DNA of 64,000 bases from a virus (lineage: Duplodnaviria; Heunggongvirae; Uroviricota; Caudoviricetes). The stretch lies in the IMG/VR virus record IMGVR_UViG_3300001199_000003, positions 58,537 through 122,536 of that record. One strand, 5' to 3'. The position numbers were made by a program, and so were the translations under genes. This document shows positions 4,350-47,826 of the stretch, piece after piece; positions within the stretch are counted from its first letter, which is position 1, and each line of letters starts with the position of its first letter. The notes under the pieces are model-generated. The model was not told where the DNA came from. It did no database searches and saw nothing but the letters and a program-made list of their open reading frames with translations.

Positions 4350-5876
4350 TTGATGCAGTTTGAAATAATTTCACCCACTAAAGCCTATGTTGTTGACGCA
4401 ACACCCCTAGAAATTGAGTCTTTGACTAAATCGCTGAGTTACGTCAATACAGCGTTTAAGCACCAAGCAAAAAGACATTATGAAAACAAGTGGCTTAGAA
4501 ATAAGAATAAAATTGCCTGGGAAAAGAAGCTTGAAGAGCTTAAGTCTAGGATTAATAACTGCCTAGTGTTTACGGACGACAGCGGAAAACGCTTCATTCG
4601 TCCAGGTTCCATTCCTTATCTGGAAATCCCAGATAGCCAAATCAAAAATCTCATAGTTTACCCAAAACCTAAAAAAGTGCCATGGGCTAAGCCTTTACCG
4701 TTCGATCTTTACGATTACCAAGACATGTCAGTCGAAAAACTGATAGAAATCAAGCATGGTAGCGTAGAATTATGTACCGGTGCTGGTAAATCTGCCATTA
4801 TTTTGCAAATTTGCAGAGAAACTGGCTTTAAAACGTGCGTTATCGCACCTTCTCAATCAATTTTCAATGAATTGTTAGAAAAATTTGAACATCATCTTGG
4901 TAAAGATAAAGTTGGAGCCCTAGGAGACGGTAAGCGCCGTCTTGGGAAACGATTTACGATCTGTATTGGCGATTCCATTGCGAATCTTAAGCCTGGTTCT
5001 GCCGAATATGAAGAATTTGCTAAAATGGACATGATGATCGTTGATGAATCCCATACGTGGGGAGCTGATACTCTAGAAGCTATATGTCATGGCGTTCTTC
5101 AAGATGTTCCTTACCGCCTGTTCATGTCAGGTACGCAAACGCGTGGTGACGGCGCAGAGAGACTACTACAAAGTATTATAGGTAAGACAGTCCACACACT
5201 TACAACTAAAGAGGCTATCGCAGGTGGCTACATCTGTGACCATGATTTTACTATTGTGGATATTGAATCTTCTAATCCAAACATCCAATCTGGCGATATT
5301 CTTGAGATGAAGCGTATCCATTTCTTGCGTAATAAAAACGTAGCCGCCTTTATTGCTAAATTGGCCAACGCTTCTGCCATGGCTTCAAATCACCAGACAC
5401 TTGTTTTGGTCGAAGAGCTATCTCAGATTGCTATGCTAATTCCGTTACTTAAAGTACCTTACGCCTATGCTCATTCCGAATCATCTAAAATGAAGCTTGC
5501 AGAGCTAGAAGCGTCAAGCGGTGTTTTATTGGAAAAAGTAGATAGGGCTGATTCGGTTGAAAAATTCAATAAATCTGAAGCCAAAGTATTGATCGGGACT
5601 TCATGTATAGCGACTGGTACTAATATCTTTCCTACTCATAACACTTGTAACTGGGTTGGTGGATCTTCTGAGATCAAAACTAAGCAAGGAGCCGTGGGGC
5701 GTAGCGTCAGAAAAGATGGAGCTAACCCATGGCGTGATAAGTGTGCTCCTAAGCCTAAGTCTAAGATTTTCGACTTCAATATTTATGATCAATTCCCACT
5801 CAAAAAGATGCTCGAAGAGCGTATTCTGTGCTACCGTGATTCCGGTACGGAAATCAAGCGTATCAAGCTGAAATAG
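4350..5876 (+). CDS. superfamily-2 DNA/RNA helicase
   Basis: Walker A CTGAGKSAI, DExH box MIVDESHTW and a later motif VI-like segment. Confidence 0.7.
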   Translation: MMQFEIISPTKAYVVDATPLEIESLTKSLSYVNTAFKHQAKRHYENKWLRNKNKIAWEKKLEELKSRINNCLVFTDDSGKRFIRPGSIPYLEIPDSQIKNLIVYPKPKKVPWAKPLPFDLYDYQDMSVEKLIEIKHGSVELCTGAGKSAIILQICRETGFKTCVIAPSQSIFNELLEKFEHHLGKDKVGALGDGKRRLGKRFTICIGDSIANLKPGSAEYEEFAKMDMMIVDESHTWGADTLEAICHGVLQDVPYRLFMSGTQTRGDGAERLLQSIIGKTVHTLTTKEAIAGGYICDHDFTIVDIESSNPNIQSGDILEMKRIHFLRNKNVAAFIAKLANASAMASNHQTLVLVEELSQIAMLIPLLKVPYAYAHSESSKMKLAELEASSGVLLEKVDRADSVEKFNKSEAKVLIGTSCIATGTNIFPTHNTCNWVGGSSEIKTKQGAVGRSVRKDGANPWRDKCAPKPKSKIFDFNIYDQFPLKKMLEERILCYRDSGTEIKRIKLK

Positions 5877-9503: not shown

Positions 9504-10475
9504 ATGAAAAACGCACTTAAATTTACACTGAGCTTGATGCTCGTTGCCTTTATGGTAGCGGTTCCTGCTCAAGCAGGGGCGATTAAAAAGATCGTTCTTA
9601 CTTCAGACAATACACTCAGTCTTAATGATGCTGTTACTGGCGCTTCAGTTGCTGAAGTTATCACTAAAGCTAAAGAACTGGACAGTAGCTTTGGTGTTTA
9701 CGCCACTATTACCGGCAAGAAAGATATCTATTTTTATCTTCGCACTCCAGGTGGATCAATTCAATCCGGCCTTGAGATGTTTGAAGCTCTTAATGGCCTT
9801 GATCGTCCAGTTCACACTATTACTAGCTTTGCAGCTTCTATGGGTTTCCAGACGGTTCAAAACCTTGGAAAACGCTATATTGTTAAAAGCGGTGTTTTGA
9901 TGTCCCACAGAGCGTCAGGTGGATTTGAAGGATCATTTGGTGGACAAAAACCGAGCCCAATGGACTCTCAAAAGAACTTCTGGGAACAACGTCTTCACGA
10001 AATGGATATGAAAACCGTAGAGCGCACTAAAGGTAAGCAAACTCTAGCTTCTTACCAAGCTCAATACGCTCCTGATATGTGGTTAACCGGTACTCAAGCT
10101 GTTGAGCAAGGATATGCTGACGAAGTTGTTCAAGTTCAGTGCGATTCATCTTTGGCCGGAGTGACTACTAAATCTGTGAATTTCATGGGTTTAATCAATA
10201 TCAACTACGACCTTGATAATTGTCCTTTAAATTCTACTCCAATGAATATCCGTATTTCTCGTATCGCTACCAATAAAGGTGAAATGGACTTTAATAAGTT
10301 TCAAGCTGCTGGCGGCGGATACGGTGTTGACTGTCTAATCGCTTCTGGTACTGATAAAACTAAGGTTTGTGCTACTAACACTTCCCTTAATGCTGAAAGA
10401 ATATATGGTCTTAAAAATGAATTCCGTAATTACTATATGGATATTAAAGGCCAAGTAAAGAACTTCAGATATTAA
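9504..10475 (+). CDS. secreted ClpP-class (S14/S49-like) serine protease
   Basis: N-terminal signal peptide MKNALKFTLSLMLVAFMVAVPAQAG. ClpP-type active-site block ITSFAASMGF. Four cysteines in the C-terminal part. Confidence 0.45.
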   Translation: MKNALKFTLSLMLVAFMVAVPAQAGAIKKIVLTSDNTLSLNDAVTGASVAEVITKAKELDSSFGVYATITGKKDIYFYLRTPGGSIQSGLEMFEALNGLDRPVHTITSFAASMGFQTVQNLGKRYIVKSGVLMSHRASGGFEGSFGGQKPSPMDSQKNFWEQRLHEMDMKTVERTKGKQTLASYQAQYAPDMWLTGTQAVEQGYADEVVQVQCDSSLAGVTTKSVNFMGLININYDLDNCPLNSTPMNIRISRIATNKGEMDFNKFQAAGGGYGVDCLIASGTDKTKVCATNTSLNAERIYGLKNEFRNYYMDIKGQVKNFRY

Positions 10476-24333: not shown

Positions 24334-27300
24334 ATGAAAGTTAGCCCACATACACATGCAGAGTCACCTCTAACCGGTTCAACCCTGGCGACTTTAGTGA
24401 AATCCGCAAAGACACTTGGACGAACTCACTTCGCCTACACGGATCACGGCCACTTAAGCTCTGCGCTTAAAGCCTACAATCAAGTTAAAAAAGCTGGTCT
24501 GAAATTCATTCCAGGAATTGAGATCTATTTTAAAGATACTATGTGTCCGTTAGTTGCTGGTACTCCTGTTGACCGTTGTAAGTATTTTACAACAACTATC
24601 TATTGCCAGGACCAAGCCTCCTATCAAGAACTTTGTAAGATAGTTTCCCGTACTGATATGCCTACTATGGAATTCTACGAAGAAAGTCAGCAATTATGGC
24701 GTTGGGAAGATCTTGAGCAGATGGCCAAATTCAACACACAGATCGTCCTTTCGGGCGTTCACTGTATGGTCGGTAAAGCTATGCTTGCCGGTAAAGCCGA
24801 TATTGGGGAGAAAATTTTGACCCGATTACAGGGTTTATTCGGGTCACGCCTATCAGTTGCTATTTTGGCTGAACCTTGGCTTAAGAAATTCTCACAGGTT
24901 ATTGAAATCAAATATGAAGATGGTACGTCAGATTCCATCCTGGCAACAGATAGTGTTTCTACCGACCGTGCTCGTTCTATACGAGCAAAAGATCTATGTG
25001 AGCCGTTTAGTCGTCATAAGCACATCAAGTCTAAGTCGGTCGGAATGATGAGTTCCGAAGTCAATAAAGATATTAAGAAGGCTACTTTACATAAAGGGTT
25101 CCTACCTTTGCCTGGCGGAGATGCTTCTTTGAAGGTAAACCGCTTTCTCGCTGCTTTGGCTAACAAGCACGGGATCAATATTTTAGTCACCGATTACGCT
25201 TATTACGCAAATAAAGAAGATAAAATCGTTCAAACCATGCGTTTAGAAGGTAATAATAAGCTTCAGCCAAATCTTCACATGAAGAATGAACAAGAAGTTA
25301 TGGATTATCTCACGGTAACTATGGGATTTCCAGCTGAAAAAGCTAAATCTATCATCGAAAACAACGAAAAATGGGCTGAAAAGTTCAATGATTTCAAAAT
25401 AACCTATGCTTGGCGTCTTGCTGAGGTCGAAGGTTCGCAATCTGCCATTAAAACTGCCATGGATATCGTTAAAGACAATAGTCGAATGCGTTGGAATGAT
25501 CCAAAATACGTTGAAAGACTTAAAGAAGAGCTGGCTGTAATTCACTCAAACGGTGTTTACGATCTTGCCCCATATTTCTTACCGATCCATGCCGTTCTTG
25601 ATCACTATCGCAGAAACGGATTGTTGACTGGCCCTGGACGGGGTTCTGCCGGTGGATCTCTTTTGTGTTATTTAATGGGGATCACTCAGATTGATCCATT
25701 CGATTTTGACCTACCATTCCAGCGATTCTTCTCGATGGTCCGTATTAAGAGTAAAAAACTTCCAGATATCGACGTGGATTTAGAGGGCCGAGAATTGCTC
25801 GTAGGCGAGGACGGACATTCTGGCTACCTTTACGGCCGATGGGGCAACAAAGCTGCTCAGATCAGTACCAGAACCACAATCAGGCTAAAATCAGCCATCC
25901 TAGACACTAACCGTTATTTCAATGGTAAGGTTGAGGATTCAATCGCTGCCCTTTCCAAGGGTCTCCCTACGCCTCCACAGGGTGTAACGGATCACCAATT
26001 CGTATTTGGCTATGAAGACTCAGATGAAAACCATATCGACGGTCTAATCGAAGTAAACGATGATCTTCGTAAATATTCAATAGATCGGCCAAAAGAGTGG
26101 GAGATTGTGTCGAAGGCAATGGGTCTCACAAGAGCCTATTCTAAACACGCATCGGCATTCGTTATTGCAGATGTTCCTATTCAAGATGTTATCCCTACTA
26201 AAGATGGAAACATCACGCAATATGAAGCTAAAGAAGTTGAGGAAGCCGGTCTGATTAAGTACGACTTCCTAGTTGTTAAGCAGCTCAAAGATATTCGAGT
26301 TGCTATGGAACTGATCAATAAGAAAAATAAAGCAACTAAAACTGTAGGGTATTTTGACCACAACGGTCAAGAGCTTTACGTCTGGAAACTCCCTCAAGAG
26401 GGCGATGTTTACCGGTCAATCTGGAATGGTCAAACTGAGACTCTATTTCAGATCAATACGGCTTCTATGCGACCGTTTGTGGTTGATATGTTACCTGAAA
26501 ACATGATGGACGTTGCCACCCTTCTTGGTCTAGTGCGACCAGGACCTATGGACTTTATCGACGAAGATACTGGCCGAAACATGGTTGAAGAGTACATGCT
26601 CCTTCGTAAGAAAGAGATTGATCCTAAGATCAAAGAAATGTACGAGCTTCTTCCAGAGACTTTCGGGATTTTAGTATTCCAAGAGCAGCTTGGTACAATT
26701 GCTAGAAAGCTAGCAGGATTCTCAGGAGAGGACGCAGAGTTACTCCGAGAAAATATGGCCAAAAAGAAGATGGTCGAACTTTTGAAAATGAAGCCTGCTT
26801 TTATGGAAGGTGCTGTCAAGAATATTGACCCAGCTATTGCCGAGAAGATCTGGGAATCAATGGTGACGTTCGGTCGTTACGGATTCTCGGTAATTCACGC
26901 CGTTGAATACGCACATATTACCTACGCTTGTATGTTCTTAAAATACCACTATCCCTTAGAATGGTGGGCTGCAGTTCTTACGAACGCGACCGAACAAGAG
27001 ATCACCGGTAAGTTTTGGCCATTCGTAAAAGACATCGTTTCACCTCCAGACATTAACTTGTCTTCGGATACTATGGCAGTGGATTACGCTAACGGACTAT
27101 TGCGTTCAAAACTCGGGATTATCCGTGGTATGGGCGAGAAGACTATTGATCCAATCGTTTCTGGCCGCCCTTATGCGGATATCCAGGATTACGTGAACAA
27201 AGATGTTGCAGGCGAAAGCTTAACTCACAAATTAATTCACGTTGGCGTATTGGATTCTCTATTTCCTCCTAAGTCTGGACTGTACGATAAGTTGAAGCTT

Positions 27301-27891
27301 TATCAGCAAGCTATTCAGAATAAAGCCTACGAAGACAAACTTGCTAAGGCTACCGCTGAAGGTAAGAGAATGCGTCAGACAGCTCCGAAAGAAGGGCAGA
27401 TCCCAGAGGATTATCTGAACATTCCACCAATCAAAGATGTGGCAATGAGAAAAGCAGTTCTACCGTCTCTCCCTGTAGATCTATTTAGTCTAGGTGCTAA
27501 GTATTCTAAAGTGCTAGATCCATTTTCGGATAGACCAGCAGTTAGATCACGCCAAGGCTATAAAACTCTTCTGTTAAATGGTGAGAAACTACGTCGTTTA
27601 GATGAGCTTGAAGGATTAATGGTCGAGGAAGATATTTATATCGCCGCTACCTGTTTTGTATTGGAAGCTAAAGAATTTGCCTATGCTAAGAATACCAAAA
27701 AAGCTCTCAAATTAATGCTTGACGCAGATGGCTATGTCTCAGAAAAGGTATTATGGCCAGAGTATGAAAGTGGAAACCTAGTTTACCCTTCTACTCTTAA
27801 GAAAGGTGCTATCGCTACGGTTTTTTTCAGGAAAAAGACCGGCAGAAAAGATATGTCGATCATGAACATAGTGGTAGAAACAGATACTTGA
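24334..27891 (+). CDS. dnaE: DNA polymerase III alpha subunit (DnaE-type, PHP domain)
   Basis: N-terminal PHP motifs HTHAES...YTDHGHLSS...IPGIEIY. Conserved polymerase block GPGRGSAGGSLLCYLMGITQIDP. 1185 aa. Confidence 0.85.
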   Translation: MKVSPHTHAESPLTGSTLATLVKSAKTLGRTHFAYTDHGHLSSALKAYNQVKKAGLKFIPGIEIYFKDTMCPLVAGTPVDRCKYFTTTIYCQDQASYQELCKIVSRTDMPTMEFYEESQQLWRWEDLEQMAKFNTQIVLSGVHCMVGKAMLAGKADIGEKILTRLQGLFGSRLSVAILAEPWLKKFSQVIEIKYEDGTSDSILATDSVSTDRARSIRAKDLCEPFSRHKHIKSKSVGMMSSEVNKDIKKATLHKGFLPLPGGDASLKVNRFLAALANKHGINILVTDYAYYANKEDKIVQTMRLEGNNKLQPNLHMKNEQEVMDYLTVTMGFPAEKAKSIIENNEKWAEKFNDFKITYAWRLAEVEGSQSAIKTAMDIVKDNSRMRWNDPKYVERLKEELAVIHSNGVYDLAPYFLPIHAVLDHYRRNGLLTGPGRGSAGGSLLCYLMGITQIDPFDFDLPFQRFFSMVRIKSKKLPDIDVDLEGRELLVGEDGHSGYLYGRWGNKAAQISTRTTIRLKSAILDTNRYFNGKVEDSIAALSKGLPTPPQGVTDHQFVFGYEDSDENHIDGLIEVNDDLRKYSIDRPKEWEIVSKAMGLTRAYSKHASAFVIADVPIQDVIPTKDGNITQYEAKEVEEAGLIKYDFLVVKQLKDIRVAMELINKKNKATKTVGYFDHNGQELYVWKLPQEGDVYRSIWNGQTETLFQINTASMRPFVVDMLPENMMDVATLLGLVRPGPMDFIDEDTGRNMVEEYMLLRKKEIDPKIKEMYELLPETFGILVFQEQLGTIARKLAGFSGEDAELLRENMAKKKMVELLKMKPAFMEGAVKNIDPAIAEKIWESMVTFGRYGFSVIHAVEYAHITYACMFLKYHYPLEWWAAVLTNATEQEITGKFWPFVKDIVSPPDINLSSDTMAVDYANGLLRSKLGIIRGMGEKTIDPIVSGRPYADIQDYVNKDVAGESLTHKLIHVGVLDSLFPPKSGLYDKLKLYQQAIQNKAYEDKLAKATAEGKRMRQTAPKEGQIPEDYLNIPPIKDVAMRKAVLPSLPVDLFSLGAKYSKVLDPFSDRPAVRSRQGYKTLLLNGEKLRRLDELEGLMVEEDIYIAATCFVLEAKEFAYAKNTKKALKLMLDADGYVSEKVLWPEYESGNLVYPSTLKKGAIATVFFRKKTGRKDMSIMNIVVETDT

Positions 27892-31297: not shown

Positions 31298-32722
31298 ATG
31301 GATTTAATGACACTTGGTATTGTGGCAGGCGGAATTCTAGGCCTAGCCGGTATCGCTTTCCTAGTAGCAGTCAGTTTACGTCGAGTCGTTCCTACGAACG
31401 AAGTTCACATTGTTCAGTCTGCAGCAAGCACTACGTCTTACGGTAAGGGAACTGGTCACGGTAACTCTTACTTTGAATGGCCTACTTCTATCCCTTTCCT
31501 GGGCGTAAGTAAGACAGTCATGCCTACATCTAACTTCGACGTAGATCTTAAAGCGTATGAAGCTTACGATGACGGTCGTCTCCCTTTCCTGGTAGATATT
31601 AAAGCATTCTTTAGAATTGCTGACTCAAACGAAGCTGCTCAAAAAGTTGCTAACTTTGATGAACTTCTTAATCAGTTAACTGCCATTGTTCAAGGTGCTG
31701 TACGTACTGTTTTGGCTTCAAACTCGATTGAAGAAATTATGCAAGGCCGCTCTAAGTTCGGTACTGAGTTCACTAAAGAAGTTCACGAACAGCTTAAAAA
31801 CTGGGGTGTTGAAACTGTTAAGAATATCGAACTTATGGATATTCGCGATGCTAAGGATTCTAAAGTAATCCACAACATCATGGAAAAGAAAAAGTCTCAA
31901 ATTGAATCTGAATCTCGCGTAGCTGTAGCGAATAACCACAGAGATGCTGAGCTTGCAGAAATCGCGGCTCGTCAGCAAACTGATCTTAAAGCTCAAGAAG
32001 CTCAAGAAGCAGTTGGTCTTCGTACTAACGAACAAGAAAAAGCCGTAGAGATTGCTAAACAAGAGAAAATTCAAGCTCTTAAAGAGCAAGAAAAGACGAC
32101 TAAAGAAAAAGAAATGGCCGTTATTAAGATTGGTAAGCTTCGTGAAGCAGAGATTGCTAAAGAAGTTGCCCTTGTTAAGTCTGAACAGGATAAACAAGTT
32201 GCTTTGATTCGCTCTGAGCAAGAGAAGCAAGTTGCGGTTATCGCTGCAGAAGGTGAAAAACAAAGAATTGAGCTTGAGTCTTCTGGTCAGTTGAAAGCTA
32301 CCCAAAACCAAGCTGAAGGTATCGCCGCTACTGGTAAAGCAAATGCTGAAGCTGAACAAGCTATCCTTGCTGCTCCAGTTAATGCCCAGATTCTTTTGGC
32401 CAAAGAGATCGGTGGAAACGAGTCGTACCAGAAGTACCTCATCACTATCGAGCAAGTTAAAGCTAACGCTCAAGTCGGTATGGAACAAGCTAAGGCTCTC
32501 CAAGCTGCTGACGTTAAAATTATCTCAAACTCTGGTAAGTCAACTGACGGCCTTAAGAGCGTAATGGATGTCTTCTCTTCCCAAGGTGGAGTAGAAATCG
32601 GTGCGATGCTTGAAGGTCTAGCTGCTACTGAGAAAGGTCAAGAGTTGATTGGTAAGTTTTTAGGTGGAAAGAAAACAGCAGCTGCTGATAAAAGCCCACT
32701 AAGTGACTCAGCTAAATCGTAA
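31298..32722 (+). CDS. SPFH/band-7 (flotillin-like) membrane protein
   Basis: N-terminal transmembrane helix, SPFH-like core, then a long Glu/Ala/Lys coiled-coil repeat region as in flotillins. Confidence 0.6.
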   Translation: MDLMTLGIVAGGILGLAGIAFLVAVSLRRVVPTNEVHIVQSAASTTSYGKGTGHGNSYFEWPTSIPFLGVSKTVMPTSNFDVDLKAYEAYDDGRLPFLVDIKAFFRIADSNEAAQKVANFDELLNQLTAIVQGAVRTVLASNSIEEIMQGRSKFGTEFTKEVHEQLKNWGVETVKNIELMDIRDAKDSKVIHNIMEKKKSQIESESRVAVANNHRDAELAEIAARQQTDLKAQEAQEAVGLRTNEQEKAVEIAKQEKIQALKEQEKTTKEKEMAVIKIGKLREAEIAKEVALVKSEQDKQVALIRSEQEKQVAVIAAEGEKQRIELESSGQLKATQNQAEGIAATGKANAEAEQAILAAPVNAQILLAKEIGGNESYQKYLITIEQVKANAQVGMEQAKALQAADVKIISNSGKSTDGLKSVMDVFSSQGGVEIGAMLEGLAATEKGQELIGKFLGGKKTAAADKSPLSDSAKS

Positions 32723-39016: not shown

Positions 39017-39739
39017 ATGACTACTGAATCGAACCATAAATTAGATAAAAAGATTAAAGCGAAGTCCGACGACCACGTCTGGCACGTTCACGAATATGAC
39101 GTAGATTTGCAATCTAACCACATATACTTGATGGGTATGGAAAGCTACGCTGCGGGACATGAAGAGATGATCGGTGAGCCAGGAGTTGAATACTCCATGG
39201 CCAATAGATTCATCCGAAACTTGAACATCTGTATGCGTGCTAATCCAGATAAGCCTATTGTGATCCACATGAAAACCTGTGGCGGTCTGTGGGAAGAAGG
39301 CATGGCGATTTATGACGCGATTAAGTCGTGTCCAATGCCTGTAACTATCTTAAACTACACACATGCGCGTTCTATGTCGAGTCTGATCTTCCAAGCCGCT
39401 AATAAGCGTGTTATGATGCCCCATAGTTACTTCATGTACCACGATGGCACTTTGGCTGTAGATGGTACGACTAAGACGGTGATTTCTAATATTGAGTTCA
39501 CACAGAAGGTCAGCCAGGCAATGCTTGACATCTATGTTGATTCGATGAAGCTTTCTGGCAAGTACAAAAATCGTTCTCGTAAATGGCTCTACGCTTACCT
39601 GCGTGAGCAAATGGACAAGAAAGAAGACGTATTCGTAGTAGCTAAAGAAGCTGTGGAACTAGGATTTGCTGACTCAGTGTTTGATTACAACTGGGCTAAA
39701 CTGACCGATTACACTCAAGAAGAATTAGCTAGAGGATAA
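39017..39739 (+). CDS. ClpP-like (S14) protease
   Basis: IVIHMKTCGGLWEEGMAIYDAIK...ARSMSSLIF...MYHDG parallels ClpP INSPGG...AIYD...AASMGS...IHQP. Confidence 0.55.
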   Translation: MTTESNHKLDKKIKAKSDDHVWHVHEYDVDLQSNHIYLMGMESYAAGHEEMIGEPGVEYSMANRFIRNLNICMRANPDKPIVIHMKTCGGLWEEGMAIYDAIKSCPMPVTILNYTHARSMSSLIFQAANKRVMMPHSYFMYHDGTLAVDGTTKTVISNIEFTQKVSQAMLDIYVDSMKLSGKYKNRSRKWLYAYLREQMDKKEDVFVVAKEAVELGFADSVFDYNWAKLTDYTQEELARG

Positions 39740-41733: not shown

Positions 41734-41936
41734 GTAAAGAAATTATTGTCCCGATTTGCTGGTTAAATGGTGGAAATATGATTGATCGGGATACCCTCCC
41801 TTCAGATCACCCAGAATCCATGTACGGTTACATTAAGTATTCATTGAAGCTAAGACCGGAAGATTACGGTATCTATACCGATAAACAGATCGCAGAGAAT
41901 AAAATCAAACAGAGTGAAGAACTCGCAAAACACTAG
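41730..41936 (+). CDS. hypothetical protein
   Basis: Track ORF. Confidence 0.4.
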   Translation: MSKEIIVPICWLNGGNMIDRDTLPSDHPESMYGYIKYSLKLRPEDYGIYTDKQIAENKIKQSEELAKH

Positions 41937-42939
41937 CATGGAGACGGACATGAGTGAACTAGATGATGCAGCAGAGTGGGCCTCAGCGGCAGAAAACTTT
42001 GATGGCGATAAAAACGAAGGTAAGCAAAGTCTAAGAGGCAGCGCTCCAGACTACGATGATGACGATGACACGACTAAGAATCCTGGACAGCCGAATCAAT
42101 ACGCTCTATATGGAGCTGGCTACATGGCTACAACACCTACTATCAAATCGTTAGTAGCTGGCTGTTACGATATCCAAGCCGATAACCGTGGCGTATTCGT
42201 GGTTCCGGCATTACCTCCATCTGGGATTCTATTAGAGTTACCGGAAATGAGATCCGATGAAGTAATCCGCGTAGTGGATAACTTTTGGAACTCTGAAGCA
42301 GACTATAAAGATGGAAACGATTTCGTAGTAGGTGGCGCACAGTTCAAAGCTGGTGTGATGATCTACGGTCCTCCAGGATCAGGTAAGTCGTGTACGATTA
42401 AGATCGTATCTAAGAAACTAGTTGAAAGAGGTGGAACAGTATTCTTCAGTTCTGGCCACCCATCTAACACAATGCGTTGGTTGGAAGATTTCGCTAGAGT
42501 TGAGCCAAACAGAAAGTGCATTGTTATTTTAGAAGATATTGATAGTTTGATCCATAACTATGGTGAATCGAACTACCTAGAGATGTTAGATTCGGCCAAA
42601 ACGATTAATAATGTCTTGTTTATTGCCACGACGAACTATCCTGAGCACTTAGATCCTCGTATCTATAACCGTCCAGGTCGTTTTAGCCATGTAATTAAGA
42701 TCGGTCTTCCAGTTCCTGCGACTCGCGAAGCTTACCTCAAAGCGATCCTCAAGAATCACCAGGATGTTGAAGAGATCGTTAAAGAGTCTGAAGGCTTCAC
42801 AATCGACCACTTGACCGCGTTGGTTAACGGTGTGTATCGTGAGAAGAAAGACCTCAAAACCGAGCTTAAACGCCTCCGTACACTGTTTAAAGTACCTAAA
42901 GGTAGCGATAAGCCTGCTCTGGGGCTCAGCAATGGGTAA
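41914..42939 (+). CDS. AAA+ ATPase
   Basis: Walker A GVMIYGPPGSGKSCT and Walker B VIVILEDIDSL. Confidence 0.65.
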   Translation: MKNSQNTSMETDMSELDDAAEWASAAENFDGDKNEGKQSLRGSAPDYDDDDDTTKNPGQPNQYALYGAGYMATTPTIKSLVAGCYDIQADNRGVFVVPALPPSGILLELPEMRSDEVIRVVDNFWNSEADYKDGNDFVVGGAQFKAGVMIYGPPGSGKSCTIKIVSKKLVERGGTVFFSSGHPSNTMRWLEDFARVEPNRKCIVILEDIDSLIHNYGESNYLEMLDSAKTINNVLFIATTNYPEHLDPRIYNRPGRFSHVIKIGLPVPATREAYLKAILKNHQDVEEIVKESEGFTIDHLTALVNGVYREKKDLKTELKRLRTLFKVPKGSDKPALGLSNG

Positions 42940-43802: not shown

Positions 43803-44021
43803 ATGAAAAGTGTTAAAATCAAGGACTTAATTGAGAATCACTCCGTTATCGGAAATGAAGAGCTTTACGAATTAAGAAAGAGCGAGAAACAGTTTTCAGA
43901 TGTTTGTAGTATTATCAATTATTCACTAGATCTATCGGATGCTGAAAAGCTTCGTAAGATTGAATATATTATCTACAATATCGGATACAGAAAAGACGTA
44001 CTTAGCAAGATTGAAAAATGA
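43803..44021 (+). CDS. hypothetical protein
   Basis: Track ORF with an AGGAA RBS. Preceded by a structured leader. Confidence 0.35.
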   Translation: MKSVKIKDLIENHSVIGNEELYELRKSEKQFSDVCSIINYSLDLSDAEKLRKIEYIIYNIGYRKDVLSKIEK

Positions 44022-44142
44022 AGAAAAGAACGAAAAAAGCTATAAAACAGATAACTAATCCTAGACTTAAATAGTCAAAGCGTGATATGGTTAGGATAGC
44101 TAAATTTGTAGAGAGATTTAAAGAGATAATTAAATAACTTAT

Positions 44143-44568
44143 GGGGGCGCGTAGTTTCGACAGGGGAACGGAGAACGAAAGGTGCAAGACGTGGAAGGGA
44201 TGAAGGCCACGTAAAAATCATTCCAATTTTATACGGCAACGTAGAAGAAAAAATGGCTGCTTAATTCCCTCACGGGAATGGCGCTTGAGGTGTTTGTCTA
44301 CCGATAACAACAAAGGCTACCATGGCTGTATCTCAGAGCCAACCCTAAGGGAGAATCTGATTAGTTTGTTCATTCTTAAAATGAACTGGTGGACGGTAGT
44401 CTTGGTGAGTAACCTTGGCAATCCCACGAGGCTGATCGACACTCGTTAAACGACGATTACGCCGCAAGGCAAGAGTCACTCAACTCTCTAATCATGGGTC
44501 AATCTTGTGCATGACCTTAGTTTGATGATCTTTTGGACGCGGGGGGCGGCTCCCCGCCGCCTCCACCA
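44143..44568 (+). ncRNA. ssrA: tmRNA (SsrA-like transfer-messenger RNA)
   Basis: The 5' GGGGGCG pairs with the 3' CGCCUCC as a 7-bp acceptor stem with a G3:U70 wobble. T-arm GCGGGG/CCCCGC and a 3' CCACCA end, followed by a T6 run. The 5' UUCGACAGGGG segment resembles the tmRNA D-loop analogue. Internal frame GGC AAC GUA GAA GAA AAA AUG GCU GCU UAA at 44235-44264 encodes a tag ending in Ala-Ala-stop. Confidence 0.6.
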
Positions 44569-44574
44569 TTTTTT

Positions 44575-45229
44575 ACGAGTGCGCGCAGTCGCAGAAACGA
44601 GACACGTAAACACTGCGCTGACATCCAGCAAAGACTGGAGGGCCAGAGCCTCGGTAGCCCTAAACTATCCGAAAGCGTTAGTAGGTGCTTCCAGGGTCGG
44701 CTGAAGCTTAATGGCGCTACCGTCGTCGCCTACTTTTATTAAATTCAGATGAGCCGAAAGGCTTAAGCCGGTTTGGGCGAAAAAGGCTGAAACCCATTTA
44801 TGGTGGCTATGGTGTAACGGGTCGTAAGACAGGCACGGCGGTTTGTGGAACCGTTGGTGAGGTTTCAAATACCTCTAGTCACCCCATTTTTATGGCGAGA
44901 AATGATCAGATGATCAGGGGCGGTTCCTAATGGTATTTAGGGCCTCGAAAGTTCGGAGCGTAGTGTAGGTTCGAGTCCTACCCAACTTTCTCTAGTTCGC
45001 AGCTAGGCTCGCCACCTTTTAAATTTAAGTAAGCCGCAAGGCTTTGAGCCAGGGGAAGCTAAGGCTAAATCTTCCTAATCTTCATAGGGTGAGGTCTACG
45101 TGCCTGAGCGAAAGCTCGAATCCGATGGCTTGCTGTCTGGTCATGCTTTTAAAACGTAGAGAACCAGGCTAGTGTGGAAGTGTTGAAATAGGCAATAACG
45201 CAATAAAAATCACATTTCACAAATCCCAA
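44575..45229 (+). other. structured non-coding RNA region with tRNA-like modules
   Basis: No credible ORF. Repeated hairpins AGCC-GAAA-GGCT (44752-44763), AGCC-GCAA-GGCT (45032-45043) and GAGC-GAAA-GCTC (45106-45117). T-arm-like GAGGU-UUCAAAU-ACCUC (44859-44875) with CCA at 44884-44886. Second T-arm GUAGG-UUCGAGU-CCUAC (44965-44981). Confidence 0.35.
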
Positions 45230-45253
45230 CCCGCCTGAAAAGGCGGGTTTTTT
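45230..45253 (+). terminator. rho-independent terminator
   Basis: Stem CCCGCC, loop UGAAAA, stem GGCGGG, followed by a T6 run. Confidence 0.6.
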
Positions 45254-45302
45254 ATTTGACATCGAAATGAAGCTGAGATACTATTCCGCGTAAGAGGTTT
45301 TA

Positions 45303-45755
45303 ATGAAAATGATGTTTGCCGAAATATTCTTTCTACTTACGATTATTACTATAATCCACGAACTTGGTCACTTTCTTATGGCCAAATACTTCAAATTCAA
45401 TATAAAAGAATTCTCCATCGGTAGTGGATTTACGATCTTTGAGCAGAAAATAAAGAACACAATGCTTGTCTTAAAACTAGTCCTACCTTTGGGTGGACAT
45501 ATTCGTGTTGATTTTGAAGTCAATAAGTTCAAACAGATGGACGACAGAAAACTCTTAGGTATCATCTGCGTCTCATTAGCTGGACCATTCATGAATATTA
45601 TCGTGGCTTTACTTACTTTCCAATATAACTTTGCATTCGCCGCTATGAGTTTTCTTACAGGAATTACAAACCTTCTACCGTTCGATATGACCGATGGAGA
45701 TATAGCCTTGGGCGGCATTAGGGAATACCTTAAAAGACGTAAGGAGAAAGCATGA
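45303..45755 (+). CDS. minimal site-2 protease (M50 family intramembrane metalloprotease)
   Basis: First TM helix carries IIHELGHFLMAKYF (HExxH), as in RseP TVHEFGHFWVARR. FSIGSGF...LPLGGHIRV matches FSIGFG...IPLGGYVKM. C-terminal NLLPFDMTDGD matches the NLLPxxxLDGG motif. No PDZ domains. Confidence 0.55.
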   Translation: MKMMFAEIFFLLTIITIIHELGHFLMAKYFKFNIKEFSIGSGFTIFEQKIKNTMLVLKLVLPLGGHIRVDFEVNKFKQMDDRKLLGIICVSLAGPFMNIIVALLTFQYNFAFAAMSFLTGITNLLPFDMTDGDIALGGIREYLKRRKEKA

Positions 45756-45964
45756 TGCCGCCAGACTACTGGTCAGCTCTTCCAGACCATAACTTCCTTA
45801 CGATTGTAATGTTTATCTTAAAATTCTACCTCACCATGTTCATTTTTATGGCCTTAAACGTAGCTTTCATGGTAGGATCGGTATGGGGACTGCTTTTCAT
45901 CTGTCGAGCCCTTGGAATACCTTGGATCGACGGCACTAAGAAAGGTTTCATTAATAGGAGTTAA
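45752..45964 (+). CDS. small membrane protein
   Basis: Two hydrophobic helices. Confidence 0.35.
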   Translation: MMPPDYWSALPDHNFLTIVMFILKFYLTMFIFMALNVAFMVGSVWGLLFICRALGIPWIDGTKKGFINRS

Positions 45965-45965
45965 C

Positions 45966-46346
45966 ATGAAAGCTTGCAACGATTGTGGACAAAGACTTTG
46001 GTCAACCGACAAGGGCGTTTGCCCTACCTGTAGACCAGATGAAAATCGCGCAGTTTACGGACTTAAGCCTTTACAGGAAGTGGTATTTAAGCAAGAACCT
46101 ACGATCAAAACTATGATTGACACTAATCCTCTTGCTCCAAGTCTCAGAACTCAAAAGACTAAGGGCCGCCCAACTAATCCAGCTCAAGAAGGGTTTGAGA
46201 ACTCTGAATCACTAGAAAACGTGATCAAGTCCCATATCCTTAAATCTTACGAGCTGAGCGGTAAGAACAAATCACGAGCCGCTAATAAGCTTGGAATTAC
46301 CGTGAAAACCCTCTATAATCACCTTGATCGGTATGGAGTTGTATGA
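45966..46346 (+). CDS. zinc-ribbon protein with Fis/NtrC-type HTH
   Basis: N-terminal CNDCGQ...CPTC. C-terminal KSRAANKLGITVKTLYNHLDRYG resembles the Fis-family HTH. Internal start of the track ORF 45912..46346. Confidence 0.45.
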   Translation: MKACNDCGQRLWSTDKGVCPTCRPDENRAVYGLKPLQEVVFKQEPTIKTMIDTNPLAPSLRTQKTKGRPTNPAQEGFENSESLENVIKSHILKSYELSGKNKSRAANKLGITVKTLYNHLDRYGVV

Positions 46347-46792
46347 AAATCAAATCAATGATGGTAAACCTACTAGAAGGTCTTAGACAGCCAGAAAATC
46401 GTGGCGTCGGCCACACAAGAAACGCTATTGAGTTTGCTAAGTCAATTGGTGCTTTATATGTGATGCCACTGATTGGAAGCTTTCATACTGTGGATAAGGA
46501 ATTTAGTAACTCCAAAAATCTCATATCTTTGACTCAAATTGAGCTTGGCGCTCTCAGATCAAGAAAGGGCCCAATCGTACTGGATAACTATACGATTTCC
46601 TTTATTTTAGAAGAATCTCTACGTGGTTTTCGCGCTCTAGAGGATATGGCGCAAGCTTCTGAAAGAGTAGCAGAACGGGCTCAAGTTGAGGCTAATGAGT
46701 TGCGTGCTGAGCTAAACGAATATAAGACTCAGACAGAGAAAATGAAGAAAGTAATCGAAAAACTAAATAATAAAACTGGAAAGAAGAAATGA
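46343..46792 (+). CDS. hypothetical protein
   Basis: Track ORF with a C-terminal coiled coil. Confidence 0.45.
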   Translation: MKIKSMMVNLLEGLRQPENRGVGHTRNAIEFAKSIGALYVMPLIGSFHTVDKEFSNSKNLISLTQIELGALRSRKGPIVLDNYTISFILEESLRGFRALEDMAQASERVAERAQVEANELRAELNEYKTQTEKMKKVIEKLNNKTGKKK

Positions 46793-47262
46793 GAGATTTA
46801 TATCAATTTCATGAAGAACTCTACGAAGTGATTGGAGAGTCTGAGATTACCCAATTTCAGGATGGCCACCCTTTTACGTATCCTGCTTTGATTCTAAAAG
46901 AGGTAGATTCTGGTAAATCCAAAATAGTACCTAAGAATTCTCTGGACCGTCTTGGAAAGCGGGTTCCGTCTAATGTGCGCGATATTGATTCTGTAGAACA
47001 GTTCCAGCAGTGCCTGCAAGCCGCTTTTCAAGGCCGATTCACGACCATGATCAATTCTTACTCCTCAGAAGAATACGTTAAATATAAGACCGCCATGACT
47101 ACCAATGTTGAGAACTACAATCGTGGGTTTCAGGAAGGTCGTCTTACAAAAGAATCTAAAAGCCTTTTGGAAAGCTTCGCAATGATGCTGTTAGTATCAG
47201 CTGAAATGTTCGCCAAAGAGAAGGCTGAAAAACTGCGCCCTCAACCTGAACCTAAAGAGTAA
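46789..47262 (+). CDS. hypothetical protein
   Basis: Track ORF. Confidence 0.45.
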   Translation: MRDLYQFHEELYEVIGESEITQFQDGHPFTYPALILKEVDSGKSKIVPKNSLDRLGKRVPSNVRDIDSVEQFQQCLQAAFQGRFTTMINSYSSEEYVKYKTAMTTNVENYNRGFQEGRLTKESKSLLESFAMMLLVSAEMFAKEKAEKLRPQPEPKE

Positions 47263-47307: not shown

Positions 47308-47826
47308 ATGAAGTACGAATTAAACCTAGTTTCAGTAGCTCGCCAATTTGCCGAAGAAGCTCATGGTGATCAAAAATACGACAATATGCCTTATACTAAC
47401 GCGCACTTGGACAAAGTTGTTCATACTCTGACGTTCTTCACAAACGATCCAGTTGTTTTGGCTATGGGATATCTTCACGATGTTTTAGAAGATACTTCTG
47501 TGACCTACGATGAATTAGCTAAGACTTTTGGTCACGTTATAGCCAATGGAGTCCTAGCTTTAACGGACCAGAAAGGTAACTCTCGTTTTGAGAGACAATT
47601 CCTTACCTACGTGAGACTTCGCGACAATCGTGAAGCTCTCCTGGTTAAGCTCTGCGACCGTATCACGAATATGCGCGCATCATTTGGCACAAAACACGCT
47701 GCCGCTTACGTTAAAGAATATGAGCGTTTTAAGGGCTCACTCTACGTAGAAGACGATCTATTTGAAGGTGCTTGGATTATCTTAGATTCACTATATAATG
47801 GCTTACTTGATGAGAGTAAAAAATGA
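47308..47826 (+). CDS. HD-domain phosphohydrolase, SpoT/Mesh1-like (p)ppGpp hydrolase family
   Basis: AMGYLHDVLEDTSVTYDEL matches the HD motif of the RelA/SpoT hydrolase domain (LLHDVVEDT). 172 aa, single domain. Confidence 0.5.
   Translation: MKYELNLVSVARQFAEEAHGDQKYDNMPYTNAHLDKVVHTLTFFTNDPVVLAMGYLHDVLEDTSVTYDELAKTFGHVIANGVLALTDQKGNSRFERQFLTYVRLRDNREALLVKLCDRITNMRASFGTKHAAAYVKEYERFKGSLYVEDDLFEGAWIILDSLYNGLLDESKK

What the first reader, a model, noticed from the sequence alone, without database searches (positions are those of the whole stretch)
45303..45755. Minimal site-2 protease (M50) encoded immediately after the RNA island
This 150-aa protein retains both catalytic transmembrane modules of RseP/S2P: the HExxH helix (IIHELGHF) and the LDG helix (NLLPFDMTDGD). 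It has no PDZ domains. A phage-borne intramembrane metalloprotease could trigger host regulated intramembrane proteolysis, for example anti-sigma cleavage. It could also process a phage membrane protein such as the adjacent 70-aa membrane ORF. I am not aware of a described role for this in phage infection.
Basis: partly seen in the sequence, partly recalled or inferred. Interest (0 to 1): 0.6.

Follow-up and report, generated by a model that had tools for sequence, protein, structure and literature searches.

The report
Phage-encoded minimal three-helix site-2 protease
A large uncultured phage carries a stripped-down 150-residue membrane zinc protease of the RseP/site-2 family that keeps the catalytic core but has lost every known substrate filter, so it may cut membrane proteins without the usual licensing step, though nobody has tested this.

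Summary
ORF 45303-45755 (+) encodes a 150-aa protein that passes Pfam Peptidase_M50 (81.9 bits against a cut-off of 27.2). HELGH lies at residues 19-23 and NLLPFDMTDG at 123-132.

The window is phage DNA from a 171-kb contig. The gene has at least nine orthologues at 54-72% identity in syntenic phage contigs, and synonymous sites are saturated (dN/dS about 0.1-0.15). A wider set of 137-164-aa mini-S2Ps keeps all catalytic residues at 29-39% identity.

The gene has its own conserved sigma-70-type promoter and overlaps (ATGA) a conserved 70-aa membrane ORF. That ORF and the protease also occur separately in more distant phages.

Best reading: an unfiltered, ungated intramembrane protease expressed by the phage; its targets are unknown. 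Main caveat: E. coli RseP lacking TM4 is inactive.

Phage M50 genes are already listed in databases and one virome survey, but none is characterised. I rate it a new variant of a known kind, of moderate interest.

The parts
45228..45249 (+). Intrinsic-terminator-like hairpin plus T-run that closes the upstream tmRNA/tRNA island
   Evidence: Nine-pair stem with 6 G-C pairs, followed by TTTTATTT (sequence).
45256..45284 (+). Sigma-70-type promoter TTGACA-17-TACTAT directly upstream of the protease gene
   Evidence: It matches 10 of 12 consensus positions. The TTGACA and TAC(T/C)AT hexamers are conserved in L001, L002 and L003 but not clearly in L067 (alignment A6). This is a consensus match only; function has not been shown.
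45292..45297 (+). Ribosome-binding site AAGAGG, 5 nt before the ATG
   Evidence: Read directly from the sequence.
45303..45755 (+). Mini site-2 protease gene (150 aa, M50 family, RseP-type three-helix core)
45357..45371 (+). Codons for HELGH (H19, E20, H23): two zinc ligands and the catalytic glutamate on TM1
   Evidence: Invariant in A2 (9 sequences), A3 (38 sequences) and A4 (12 divergent mini-S2Ps).
45402..45509 (+). Membrane-reentrant beta-hairpin (residues 34-69, EFSIG...PLGGHIRV)
   Evidence: AF2 strands 34-50 and 53-69. Aligns to RseP residues about 30-70. G40, G42 and G65 are invariant.
45669..45698 (+). Codons for NLLPFDMTDG (N123, P126, D131, G132): the substrate-clamping Asn and the third zinc ligand Asp on TM3
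   Evidence: Invariant in A2, A3 and A4. Aligns to Aquifex RseP 356-394.
45752..45964 (+). Conserved 70-aa membrane protein (orf70), start overlapping the protease stop (ATGA). It may be a partner, regulator or substrate, or it may be unrelated.
   Evidence: 83-94% identity in L001, L002, L003 and L067. dN/dS 0.03-0.09. Thirteen homologues with an invariant C-terminal GIPWxDGTxKG motif. One 46-residue hydrophobic stretch. AF2 predicts a helix at 15-54. Found without an adjacent M50 gene in L070-L072.
44143..44568 (+). Context: phage tmRNA gene
   Evidence: Rfam RF00023, 75.4 bits. Conserved in L001, L003 and L067.
44803..44883 (+). Context: tRNA gene
   Evidence: Rfam RF00005, 49.3 bits. ARAGORN did not find it.

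Best explanation
The gene encodes a real, selected zinc intramembrane protease of the M50/site-2 family. It has been reduced to the three-helix catalytic core of an RseP-type enzyme.

The predicted layout is as follows. The N-terminus is outside. TM1 carries HELGH. A cytoplasmic membrane-reentrant beta-hairpin follows, then TM2 with AGPxxN, a 4-residue outer loop, and TM3 with NxxPxxxxDG. The basic C-terminal tail is inside.

The current RseP model has three control steps: PDZ size exclusion, PCT-H2/TM4 gating, and unwinding by the beta-hairpin and Asn. Only the unwinding and catalytic elements remain here.

I infer that the phage transcribes the gene with host RNA polymerase from its own sigma-70-type promoter. 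It is the first gene of a block of small genes. The product inserts into the host cytoplasmic membrane. There it cleaves single-span transmembrane segments without a prior site-1 cut. The targets would most likely be host membrane-tethered regulators (anti-sigma factors) or small membrane proteins, and possibly phage membrane proteins.

Shown here: family membership, architecture, conservation and phage context. Inferred: catalytic activity, lack of gating, timing of expression, and all targets.
For: Family and fold:
- Pfam M50 scores 81.9 bits against a cut-off of 27.2.
- The best NCBIfam hit is RseP TIGR00054.
- In the PDB sequence search, residues 9-109 align to Aquifex RseP 7-109 (full-sequence E 2.7e-13) and, in a second stretch not significant on its own (6.1 bits, i-Evalue 1e+02), 108-146 to 356-394. 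This would place the PDZ/PCT insert and TM4 as the missing parts.
- The AF2 model has pLDDT 89.7 and pTM 0.83.
- The six significant Foldseek PDB hits are five solved RseP structures and an integrative RasP-EcsA model.

Signs of function:
- H19, E20, H23, N123, P126, D131 and G132 are invariant across the nine close family members, 38 mixed homologues and 12 divergent mini-S2Ps at 29-39% identity.
- pN is 0.11-0.31 against a saturated pS of 0.67-0.82.
- 17 of 18 Lys/Arg residues lie on the predicted cytoplasmic side.

Phage context:
- Phage hallmark genes are present.
- The order ClpP...AAA...tmRNA/tRNA...M50 is conserved in four large contigs. M50 also follows tRNAs in a fifth, more distant contig.
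- The promoter is conserved.
- No copy of this family was found in one genome from each of 185,579 species.

Mechanistic basis from the literature:
- The PDZ tandem acts as a size filter, PCT-H2 plus TM4 as a gate, and the MRE-beta sheet plus Asn as the unwinding device (PMC11864173, PMC9401612).
- Disrupting the PDZ domain lets RseP cut RseA without site-1 cleavage (PMC10202637).
- RseP also degrades small membrane proteins, including the toxin HokB (PMC10470546).
Against: - E. coli RseP deleted for TM4 virtually loses activity and does not complement (PMC9401612 section 11). A core without TM4 may therefore be inactive on its own or may need a partner.
- No activity, zinc binding, expression timing or substrate has been measured.
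- The host is unknown. The nearest cellular homologues are at most 39% identical and taxonomically scattered. No specific anti-sigma target can therefore be named.
- The protein fails the RseP equivalog cut-off (55.5 bits against 147.55).
- The promoter is only a consensus match. The number of such matches in the region is no higher than in shuffled sequence (6 found against a mean of 7.2).
Confidence: 0.6

Rival explanations
1. The protease works as a two-gene unit with the translationally coupled 70-aa membrane protein orf70. That protein could be its substrate. It could be a BofA-like small-membrane-protein regulator that holds the PDZ-less protease in check. Or it could be a trans-acting replacement for the missing TM4/gate helix.
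For: - An ATGA start/stop overlap occurs in the window, L001, L002 and L067, and a 14-nt overlap in L003.
- orf70 is even more conserved than the protease: 83-94% identity and dN/dS 0.03-0.09.
- On a hairpin topology, its first hydrophobic helix follows a roughly 20-residue loop, which is where TM4 would sit in a fused protein.
- EcRseP needs TM4 for activity.
- There is a precedent: BofA, a small two-helix membrane protein, inhibits the PDZ-less S2P SpoIVFB (PMC10202637).
- RseP cleaves 50-100-aa small membrane proteins.
Against: - The genes are separable. The 54%-identical mini-S2P in L068 and the 137-aa one in L069 are followed by soluble proteins.
- orf70 homologues in L070, L071 and L072 have no M50 gene in the 4-12 kb available.
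- orf70 has no Pfam hit, including BofA.
- hhalign against PDZ-less RseP homologues gives only a 2.8%-probability match, and that match is to TM3 rather than TM4.
- If orf70 is single-span, its basic C-terminus predicts an N-out/C-in orientation, the opposite of canonical type II S2P substrates.
Confidence: 0.2
2. The protein is a catalytically dead or very weak remnant. It would act by binding rather than cutting, for example as a decoy that sequesters substrates of the host S2P, or as a membrane-perturbing factor.
For: - Loss of TM4 abolishes EcRseP activity (PMC9401612).
- The protein is far below the RseP equivalog score.
- Phages often carry truncated host-derived proteins.
Against: - All three zinc ligands, the catalytic Glu, the clamp Asn and the kink Pro are invariant across lineages that are only 29-39% identical. 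That degree of conservation is not expected for a non-catalytic binder.
- The model reproduces the RseP active-site core at 1.9 A rmsd.
- The literature states that the three-helix core is the conserved catalytic unit of all S2Ps (PMC10202637).
Confidence: 0.12
3. The gene is a recent, functionless passenger fragment of a host rseP/rasP gene, or an artefact of gene calling or assembly.
For: The nearest cellular homologue examined (P0012) is a housekeeping rseP/rasP orthologue in a pyrH-frr-uppS-cdsA-M50-x-polC locus. This is consistent with capture from a host.
Against: - The ORF is bounded by an upstream stop and has its own ribosome-binding site.
- Nine orthologues share both ends.
- Synonymous sites are saturated while amino-acid change is limited.
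- Identity to any cellular protein is at most about 40%.
- Independent 137-164-aa lineages exist.
Confidence: 0.03

Closest known systems
RseP (E. coli YaeL; Aquifex aeolicus and Kangiella koreensis orthologues; PDB 7W6X, 7W6Y, 9J82/9J83), group I site-2 proteases
   Same: It shares HExxH on TM1, the EFSIG...PLGG membrane-reentrant beta-hairpin, AGPxxN on TM2 and NxxPxxxxDG on TM3. It is 30% identical to Aquifex RseP, and 138 residues superpose at 1.9 A. The predicted topology is the same.
   Different: It lacks both PDZ domains, PCT-H1, the PCT loop and PCT-H2, as well as TM4 and the C-tail. It is 150 aa against about 430-450 aa. It scores 55.5 bits against the 147.55-bit equivalog cut-off. 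It is encoded by a phage rather than in the uppS-cdsA-rseP locus.
PDZ-less ~240-260-aa bacterial RseP/RasP orthologues (e.g. P0012, P0287 'Clostridia bacterium', P0032 Caviibacter abscessus)
   Same: These are the nearest cellular relatives at about 37-43% identity. They have no PDZ domain and share the same core motifs.
   Different: They keep a roughly 70-residue TM2-TM3 insert containing the GPVGI (PCT-like) segment, and they keep TM4. P0012 passes the RseP equivalog cut-off at 214 bits and sits in a housekeeping locus.
Methanocaldococcus jannaschii S2P (PDB 3B4R) and SpoIVFB (8VJL), group III S2Ps
   Different: These enzymes have six TM helices, with flanking gate helices and a CBS domain. 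The phage protein has neither.
Other phage-associated M50 proteins: IMG/VR 187-227-aa four-helix forms (L005-L012, L015) and UniProt A0A6J5SMS1 'Peptidase M50 [uncultured Caudovirales phage]' (184 aa)
   Same: They are PDZ-less RseP-type cores on viral contigs. The tblastn best-segment identity of the IMG/VR forms is 25-37%. A0A6J5SMS1 matches with a Foldseek TM-score of 0.72 and 24% identity. All are uncharacterised, and no PHROG family covers any of them.
   Different: The IMG/VR forms retain a C-terminal TM4. They lie next to a peptide deformylase gene in AT-rich genomes (GC 26-34%), and they have no orf70 neighbour.

Membership tests
Peptidase M50 / site-2 protease (Pfam PF02163) | Profile score above the curated gathering threshold | tested here: met
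   81.9 bits against 27.2, E 5.7e-23.
Peptidase M50 / site-2 protease (Pfam PF02163) | HExxH zinc-binding/catalytic motif within a transmembrane helix | tested here: met
   H19-E20-L-G-H23 lies inside helix 2-29 of the model. It is invariant in A2, A3 and A4.
Peptidase M50 / site-2 protease (Pfam PF02163) | NxxPxxxxDG ('LDG') motif with the third zinc ligand on a separate transmembrane helix | tested here: met
   N123, P126, D131 and G132 are on TM3 (helices 110-124 and 131-149). They are invariant and align to the same motif of Aquifex RseP.
Peptidase M50 / site-2 protease (Pfam PF02163) | Three-helix catalytic core fold | tested here: met
Peptidase M50 / site-2 protease (Pfam PF02163) | Zinc-dependent intramembrane proteolysis | not testable with these tools
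   This needs a biochemical or in vivo cleavage assay.
RseP equivalog / group I S2P (NCBIfam TIGR00054) | Score above the equivalog cut-off | tested here: not met
   55.5 bits against 147.55. The PDZ-less bacterial homologue P0012 scores 214.
RseP equivalog / group I S2P (NCBIfam TIGR00054) | One or more periplasmic PDZ domains between TM2 and TM3 | tested here: not met
   There is no PDZ Pfam hit. Only 4 residues separate TM2 and TM3.
RseP equivalog / group I S2P (NCBIfam TIGR00054) | PCT region (H1, loop, H2) and TM4 forming the substrate gate | tested here: not met
   The alignment with 240-260-aa and full-length homologues shows both segments are absent. The protein ends 18 residues after the LDG Gly (G132).
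RseP equivalog / group I S2P (NCBIfam TIGR00054) | Membrane-reentrant beta-hairpin after TM1 | tested here: met
   The EFSIGSG...LPLGGHIRV segment aligns to the RseP loop and is modelled as strands 34-50 and 53-69.
Group III S2P (SpoIVFB / MjS2P type) | Six TM helices and a CBS domain | tested here: not met
   The protein has three TM helices and no CBS hit.
BofA-type S2P inhibitor (as a possible identity for orf70) | Sequence membership of the BofA family | tested here: not met
   There is no Pfam hit at E <= 1 apart from a chance POPDC match. Any resemblance is functional analogy only.

The most novel reading that the evidence does not exclude
Phages have repeatedly evolved a free-standing three-helix S2P core that is active without PDZ domains, the PCT region or TM4. 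They would use it as an always-on intramembrane protease to rewire the host. One route is cutting membrane-tethered anti-sigma factors or other single-span regulators with no site-1 signal. Another is destroying small membrane toxins of the Hok type that would otherwise abort infection. If true, it would also be the smallest natural intramembrane metalloprotease and would show that the conserved core alone is sufficient for catalysis.
Probability: 0.25. Interest if true: 0.75.

Novelty: new variant of a known kind. Interest (0 to 1): 0.5.

Why it matters
Site-2 proteases control envelope-stress, sporulation, virulence and iron-signalling pathways. Their selectivity is thought to rest on accessory filters: PDZ size exclusion and the PCT/TM4 gate. 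A natural, conserved, phage-borne enzyme that has lost all of these would matter in three ways.

1. It would be a ready-made test of whether the three-helix core alone can bind zinc and cut. Deleting TM4 from E. coli RseP says it cannot.
2. It would be a small, tractable target for structural work on substrate unwinding.
3. It would be a candidate for a new class of phage host-takeover or anti-defence function that acts inside the membrane.

If it proves inactive alone, the conserved 70-aa neighbour becomes a candidate trans-acting subunit, which would also be new.

Tried and rejected
- **Known phages.** A near-identity DNA search of 44000-47000 against GenBank phages found no match. A tblastn search of the protein against the same phages found only 8 weak partial hits, several on short or doubtful records.
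- **PHROGs.** No family covers this protein or any other viral S2P tested. phrog_1914 at E 0.033 was dismissed.
- **PADLOC.** There was no hit for the protease or orf70, so a known defence-system identity was dropped.
- **Family-specific scans.** Peptide-pattern scans of IMG/VR and of one genome from each of 185,579 species found no relatives. A scan with the divergent alignment A4 failed for lack of a conserved stretch.
- **Host inference.** The top genome hits are at most 39% identical and are scattered over Clostridia, Erysipelotrichia, Bdellovibrionales and others. The nearest cultured phage by DnaE is Myxococcus phage Mx1 at 33%. I found no reliable host.
- **Split-gene idea (orf70 as the missing TM4).** hhalign found no TM4 match, and other mini-S2Ps lack any membrane neighbour. 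I kept it only as part of a rival explanation.
- **orf70 resemblance to the LDG helix.** The resemblance of 'GIPWIDGT' to 'LPIPALDGG' has 2.8% probability and is not significant.
- **Truncation by gene calling or assembly.** I rejected this.
- **ARAGORN.** It found no tRNA or tmRNA in the window, although Rfam finds both.
- **Zinc-site geometry.** I could not measure it because model coordinates are not exposed to the scripting tool.

Full report
**1. Observation**

ORF 45303..45755 (+) encodes 150 aa and begins at the first start codon after an in-frame stop. An AAGAGG ribosome-binding site lies 5 nt upstream. The quoted motifs are present: HELGH at residues 19-23 and NLLPFDMTDG at 123-132. 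Pfam assigns Peptidase_M50 at E 5.7e-23 and 81.9 bits (gathering cut-off 27.2), and no PDZ family is hit.

The window is phage DNA. PHROG hits identify a portal, a helicase, an SbcC-like nuclease, a DnaE-type polymerase and a tail fibre. The exact protein is on record on a 171-kb contig.

Upstream, Rfam finds a tmRNA (44143-44568) and a tRNA (44803-44883). A terminator-like hairpin at 45228-45249 closes that region. A TTGACA-17-TACTAT promoter-like site at 45256-45284 follows directly.

**2. Anatomy**

A sequence search of the PDB returns the solved RseP structures as the top matches. Residues 9-109 align to residues 7-109 of Aquifex aeolicus RseP (full-sequence E 2.7e-13). Residues 108-146 align to residues 356-394 in a second stretch that is not significant on its own (6.1 bits, i-Evalue 1e+02). 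That would place RseP residues ~110-355 (the PDZ tandem and PCT region) and everything after TM3 (TM4 and the C-tail) as the missing parts.

A 38-sequence alignment shows the same thing against the nearest cellular relatives, which are PDZ-less proteins of about 240-260 aa. The phage protein lacks their roughly 70-residue TM2-TM3 insert, which contains a conserved GPVGI segment, and it lacks their C-terminal helix.

AlphaFold2 with that alignment gives pLDDT 89.7 and pTM 0.83. The elements are helix 2-29, a beta-hairpin at 34-69, helix 81-105, and helices 110-124 and 131-149.

- The six significant Foldseek hits in the PDB are five solved RseP structures and an integrative RasP-EcsA model.

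Seventeen of 18 Lys/Arg residues fall on the side predicted to be cytoplasmic by the RseP topology.

NCBIfam's best hit is the RseP equivalog model, but at 55.5 bits against a cut-off of 147.55. A 244-aa PDZ-less bacterial homologue passes that model at 214 bits. That homologue sits in a pyrH-frr-uppS-cdsA-M50-x-polC housekeeping locus.

The protein therefore belongs to M50 and is derived from the RseP lineage. It is not an RseP equivalog.

**3. It is a conserved phage gene, not debris**

Eight further proteins of 140-151 aa share 65-72% identity with it, and a 164-aa one shares 54%.

- Four large contigs (59-171 kb) share the order ClpP ... AAA ATPase ... tmRNA/tRNA ... M50.
- The 54% relative follows three tRNA genes in a phage-like contig.
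- Between orthologues, synonymous sites are saturated (pS 0.67-0.82). Non-synonymous change is 0.11-0.31, which gives dN/dS of about 0.10-0.15 where it can be computed.
- The -35 and -10 hexamers are conserved in three lineages.

An exhaustive profile search of 1.84 billion representatives found further 137-158-aa proteins that match over the whole length. In a 12-sequence alignment of these mini-S2Ps (29-39% identity to the window protein), the invariant residues include H19, E20, H23, N123, P126, D131 and G132. One of them lies among small phage-like ORFs.

Family-specific scans found no copy in IMG/VR or in one genome from each of 185,579 species.

**4. Other viral S2Ps**

A broader pattern scan of IMG/VR found 61 loci with M50 relatives. 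About ten encode 187-227-aa PDZ-less proteins with the same short TM2-TM3 spacing but a retained fourth helix.

- These lie in AT-rich contigs (GC 26-34%) next to a peptide deformylase and a BT1/MFS transporter.
- SbcCD, primase/helicase and methyltransferase genes are nearby.

BFVD holds a 184-aa 'Peptidase M50 [uncultured Caudovirales phage]' that matches the model at TM-score 0.72. PHROGs has no family for any of these proteins.

The literature searches found no functional study of a phage S2P. One river-virome paper lists peptidase M50 as a viral auxiliary gene (PMC12993620).

**5. The neighbour**

orf70 (45752-45964) overlaps the protease stop codon as ATGA.

- It is 83-94% identical in four related phages.
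- It is under stronger constraint than the protease, with dN/dS of 0.03-0.09.
- It has 13 homologues with an invariant C-terminal GIPWxDGTxKG motif.
- It has one 46-residue hydrophobic stretch, which AF2 models as a single long helix (pLDDT 79).

The pairing is not obligate, however. The L068 and L069 mini-S2Ps are followed by soluble proteins. orf70 homologues in L070-L072 have no M50 gene in the 4-12 kb available. orf70 has no Pfam hit. hhalign against PDZ-less S2Ps gives only an insignificant match to the LDG helix.

**6. Mechanism**

The current RseP model has three steps (PMC9401612, PMC11864173):

1. Size exclusion by the PDZ tandem.
2. Gating by PCT-H2 and TM4.
3. [quoted passage not shown]

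PDZ disruption allows site-1-independent cleavage of RseA (PMC10202637). The phage protein retains only the third module and the catalytic centre.

My best-supported reading is an unfiltered, ungated intramembrane protease made from a host-type promoter and inserted into the host membrane. It would be able to cut single-span helices without a licensing site-1 cut.

Plausible targets are inferred from known S2P substrates:

- anti-sigma factors;
- small membrane proteins such as HokB (PMC10470546);
- signal-peptide remnants.

None of these is shown here.

The main counter-evidence is that EcRseP without TM4 is inactive. This leaves room for a partner-dependent enzyme, with orf70 as the obvious candidate, or for a non-catalytic binder. 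The strict invariance of every catalytic residue across very divergent mini-S2Ps argues against the non-catalytic option.

**7. Novelty and verdict**

The family (M50) and the idea of PDZ-less S2Ps are known, and viral M50 genes are already catalogued. What I did not find described is a conserved, phage-restricted, three-helix-only architecture lacking TM4. It occurs next to a tmRNA/tRNA island and is often coupled to a conserved small membrane protein.

I rate it a new variant of a known kind, with interest 0.5. My confidence is high (>0.95) that it is an M50 protein. It is about 0.6 that it is an active, unfiltered intramembrane protease, and low for any specific target.

Noticed in passing
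window 44143-44568 and 44803-44883: Rfam detects a phage-encoded tmRNA (75 bits) and an 81-nt tRNA, but ARAGORN missed both on the whole window. The tmRNA is conserved in related phages L001, L003 and L067. The reading frame before its UAA appears to end in ...MAA, but I did not determine the tag.
   Followed up: partly
window 44884-45227: About 345 nt between the tRNA and the terminator have no Rfam match at E <= 0.1 and no convincing ORF. The stretch 44884-45255, which also takes in the terminator hairpin, folds better than shuffled sequence (z = -3.2; 1 of 100 shuffles does as well). It contains a GGTTCGAGTCC T-loop-like element. It may hold degenerate tRNA-like or other structured RNAs.
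   Followed up: partly
window 9504-10475, 31298-32722, 39017-39739, 41914-42939, 47308-47826: The phage carries a striking set of proteostasis and stress genes: two ClpP-family proteins (one with an N-terminal hydrophobic segment), an SPFH/Band 7 membrane protein with an N-terminal anchor, an AAA ATPase and an HD_4 (RelA/SpoT-type HD) protein. The tmRNA and the S2P add to this set. S2P cleavage products and tmRNA-tagged proteins are both ClpXP substrates in model bacteria, so a functional link is conceivable but untested.
   Followed up: partly
window 45966-46346: Directly after orf70 lies a 126-aa protein with an N-terminal CxxC...CxxC zinc ribbon and a C-terminal Fis-type HTH_8. It also matches the HTH end of a PADLOC RtcR/PspF-like model (E 9.9e-09). 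It is probably a phage transcription regulator in the same operon.
   Followed up: no
L005-L012, L015 (IMG/VR contigs, M50 at about 4950-5650 in each locus): AT-rich viral contigs (GC 26-34%) share a conserved cluster: peptide deformylase, then a short four-helix PDZ-less S2P (187-220 aa), then a BT1/MFS transporter, with SbcCD-like genes nearby. This is a second, independent group of phage-borne S2Ps that always sits next to another metalloenzyme acting on nascent proteins.
   Followed up: partly
L066 8001-8735 (P0012): A 244-aa protein with no PDZ domain passes the NCBIfam RseP equivalog cut-off and occupies the canonical pyrH-frr-uppS-cdsA-rseP-x-polC locus of a PolC-type bacterium. Housekeeping RseP/RasP orthologues can therefore be naturally PDZ-less.
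   Followed up: partly
window 45752-45964 and homologues P0360-P0372: The orf70 family has an almost invariant C-terminal motif, R-x-L-G-I-P-W-I-D-G-T-T-K-G-F-I-N-R-S, with no match in Pfam. In L070 and L071 it lies near a 467-aa Band 7 protein instead of an M50 gene.
   Followed up: partly
window 24334-27891: The DnaE-type polymerase is most similar, among cultured phages, to that of Myxococcus phage Mx1 (33% identity over 99% of its length). The window has only about 41% GC, so it is a distant, low-GC relative with an unknown host.
   Followed up: no
window 45368-45718 (- strand): A 116-aa antisense ORF lies entirely inside the protease gene. Given the strong purifying selection on the + strand frame, it is most likely a by-product and not a gene.
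   Followed up: no
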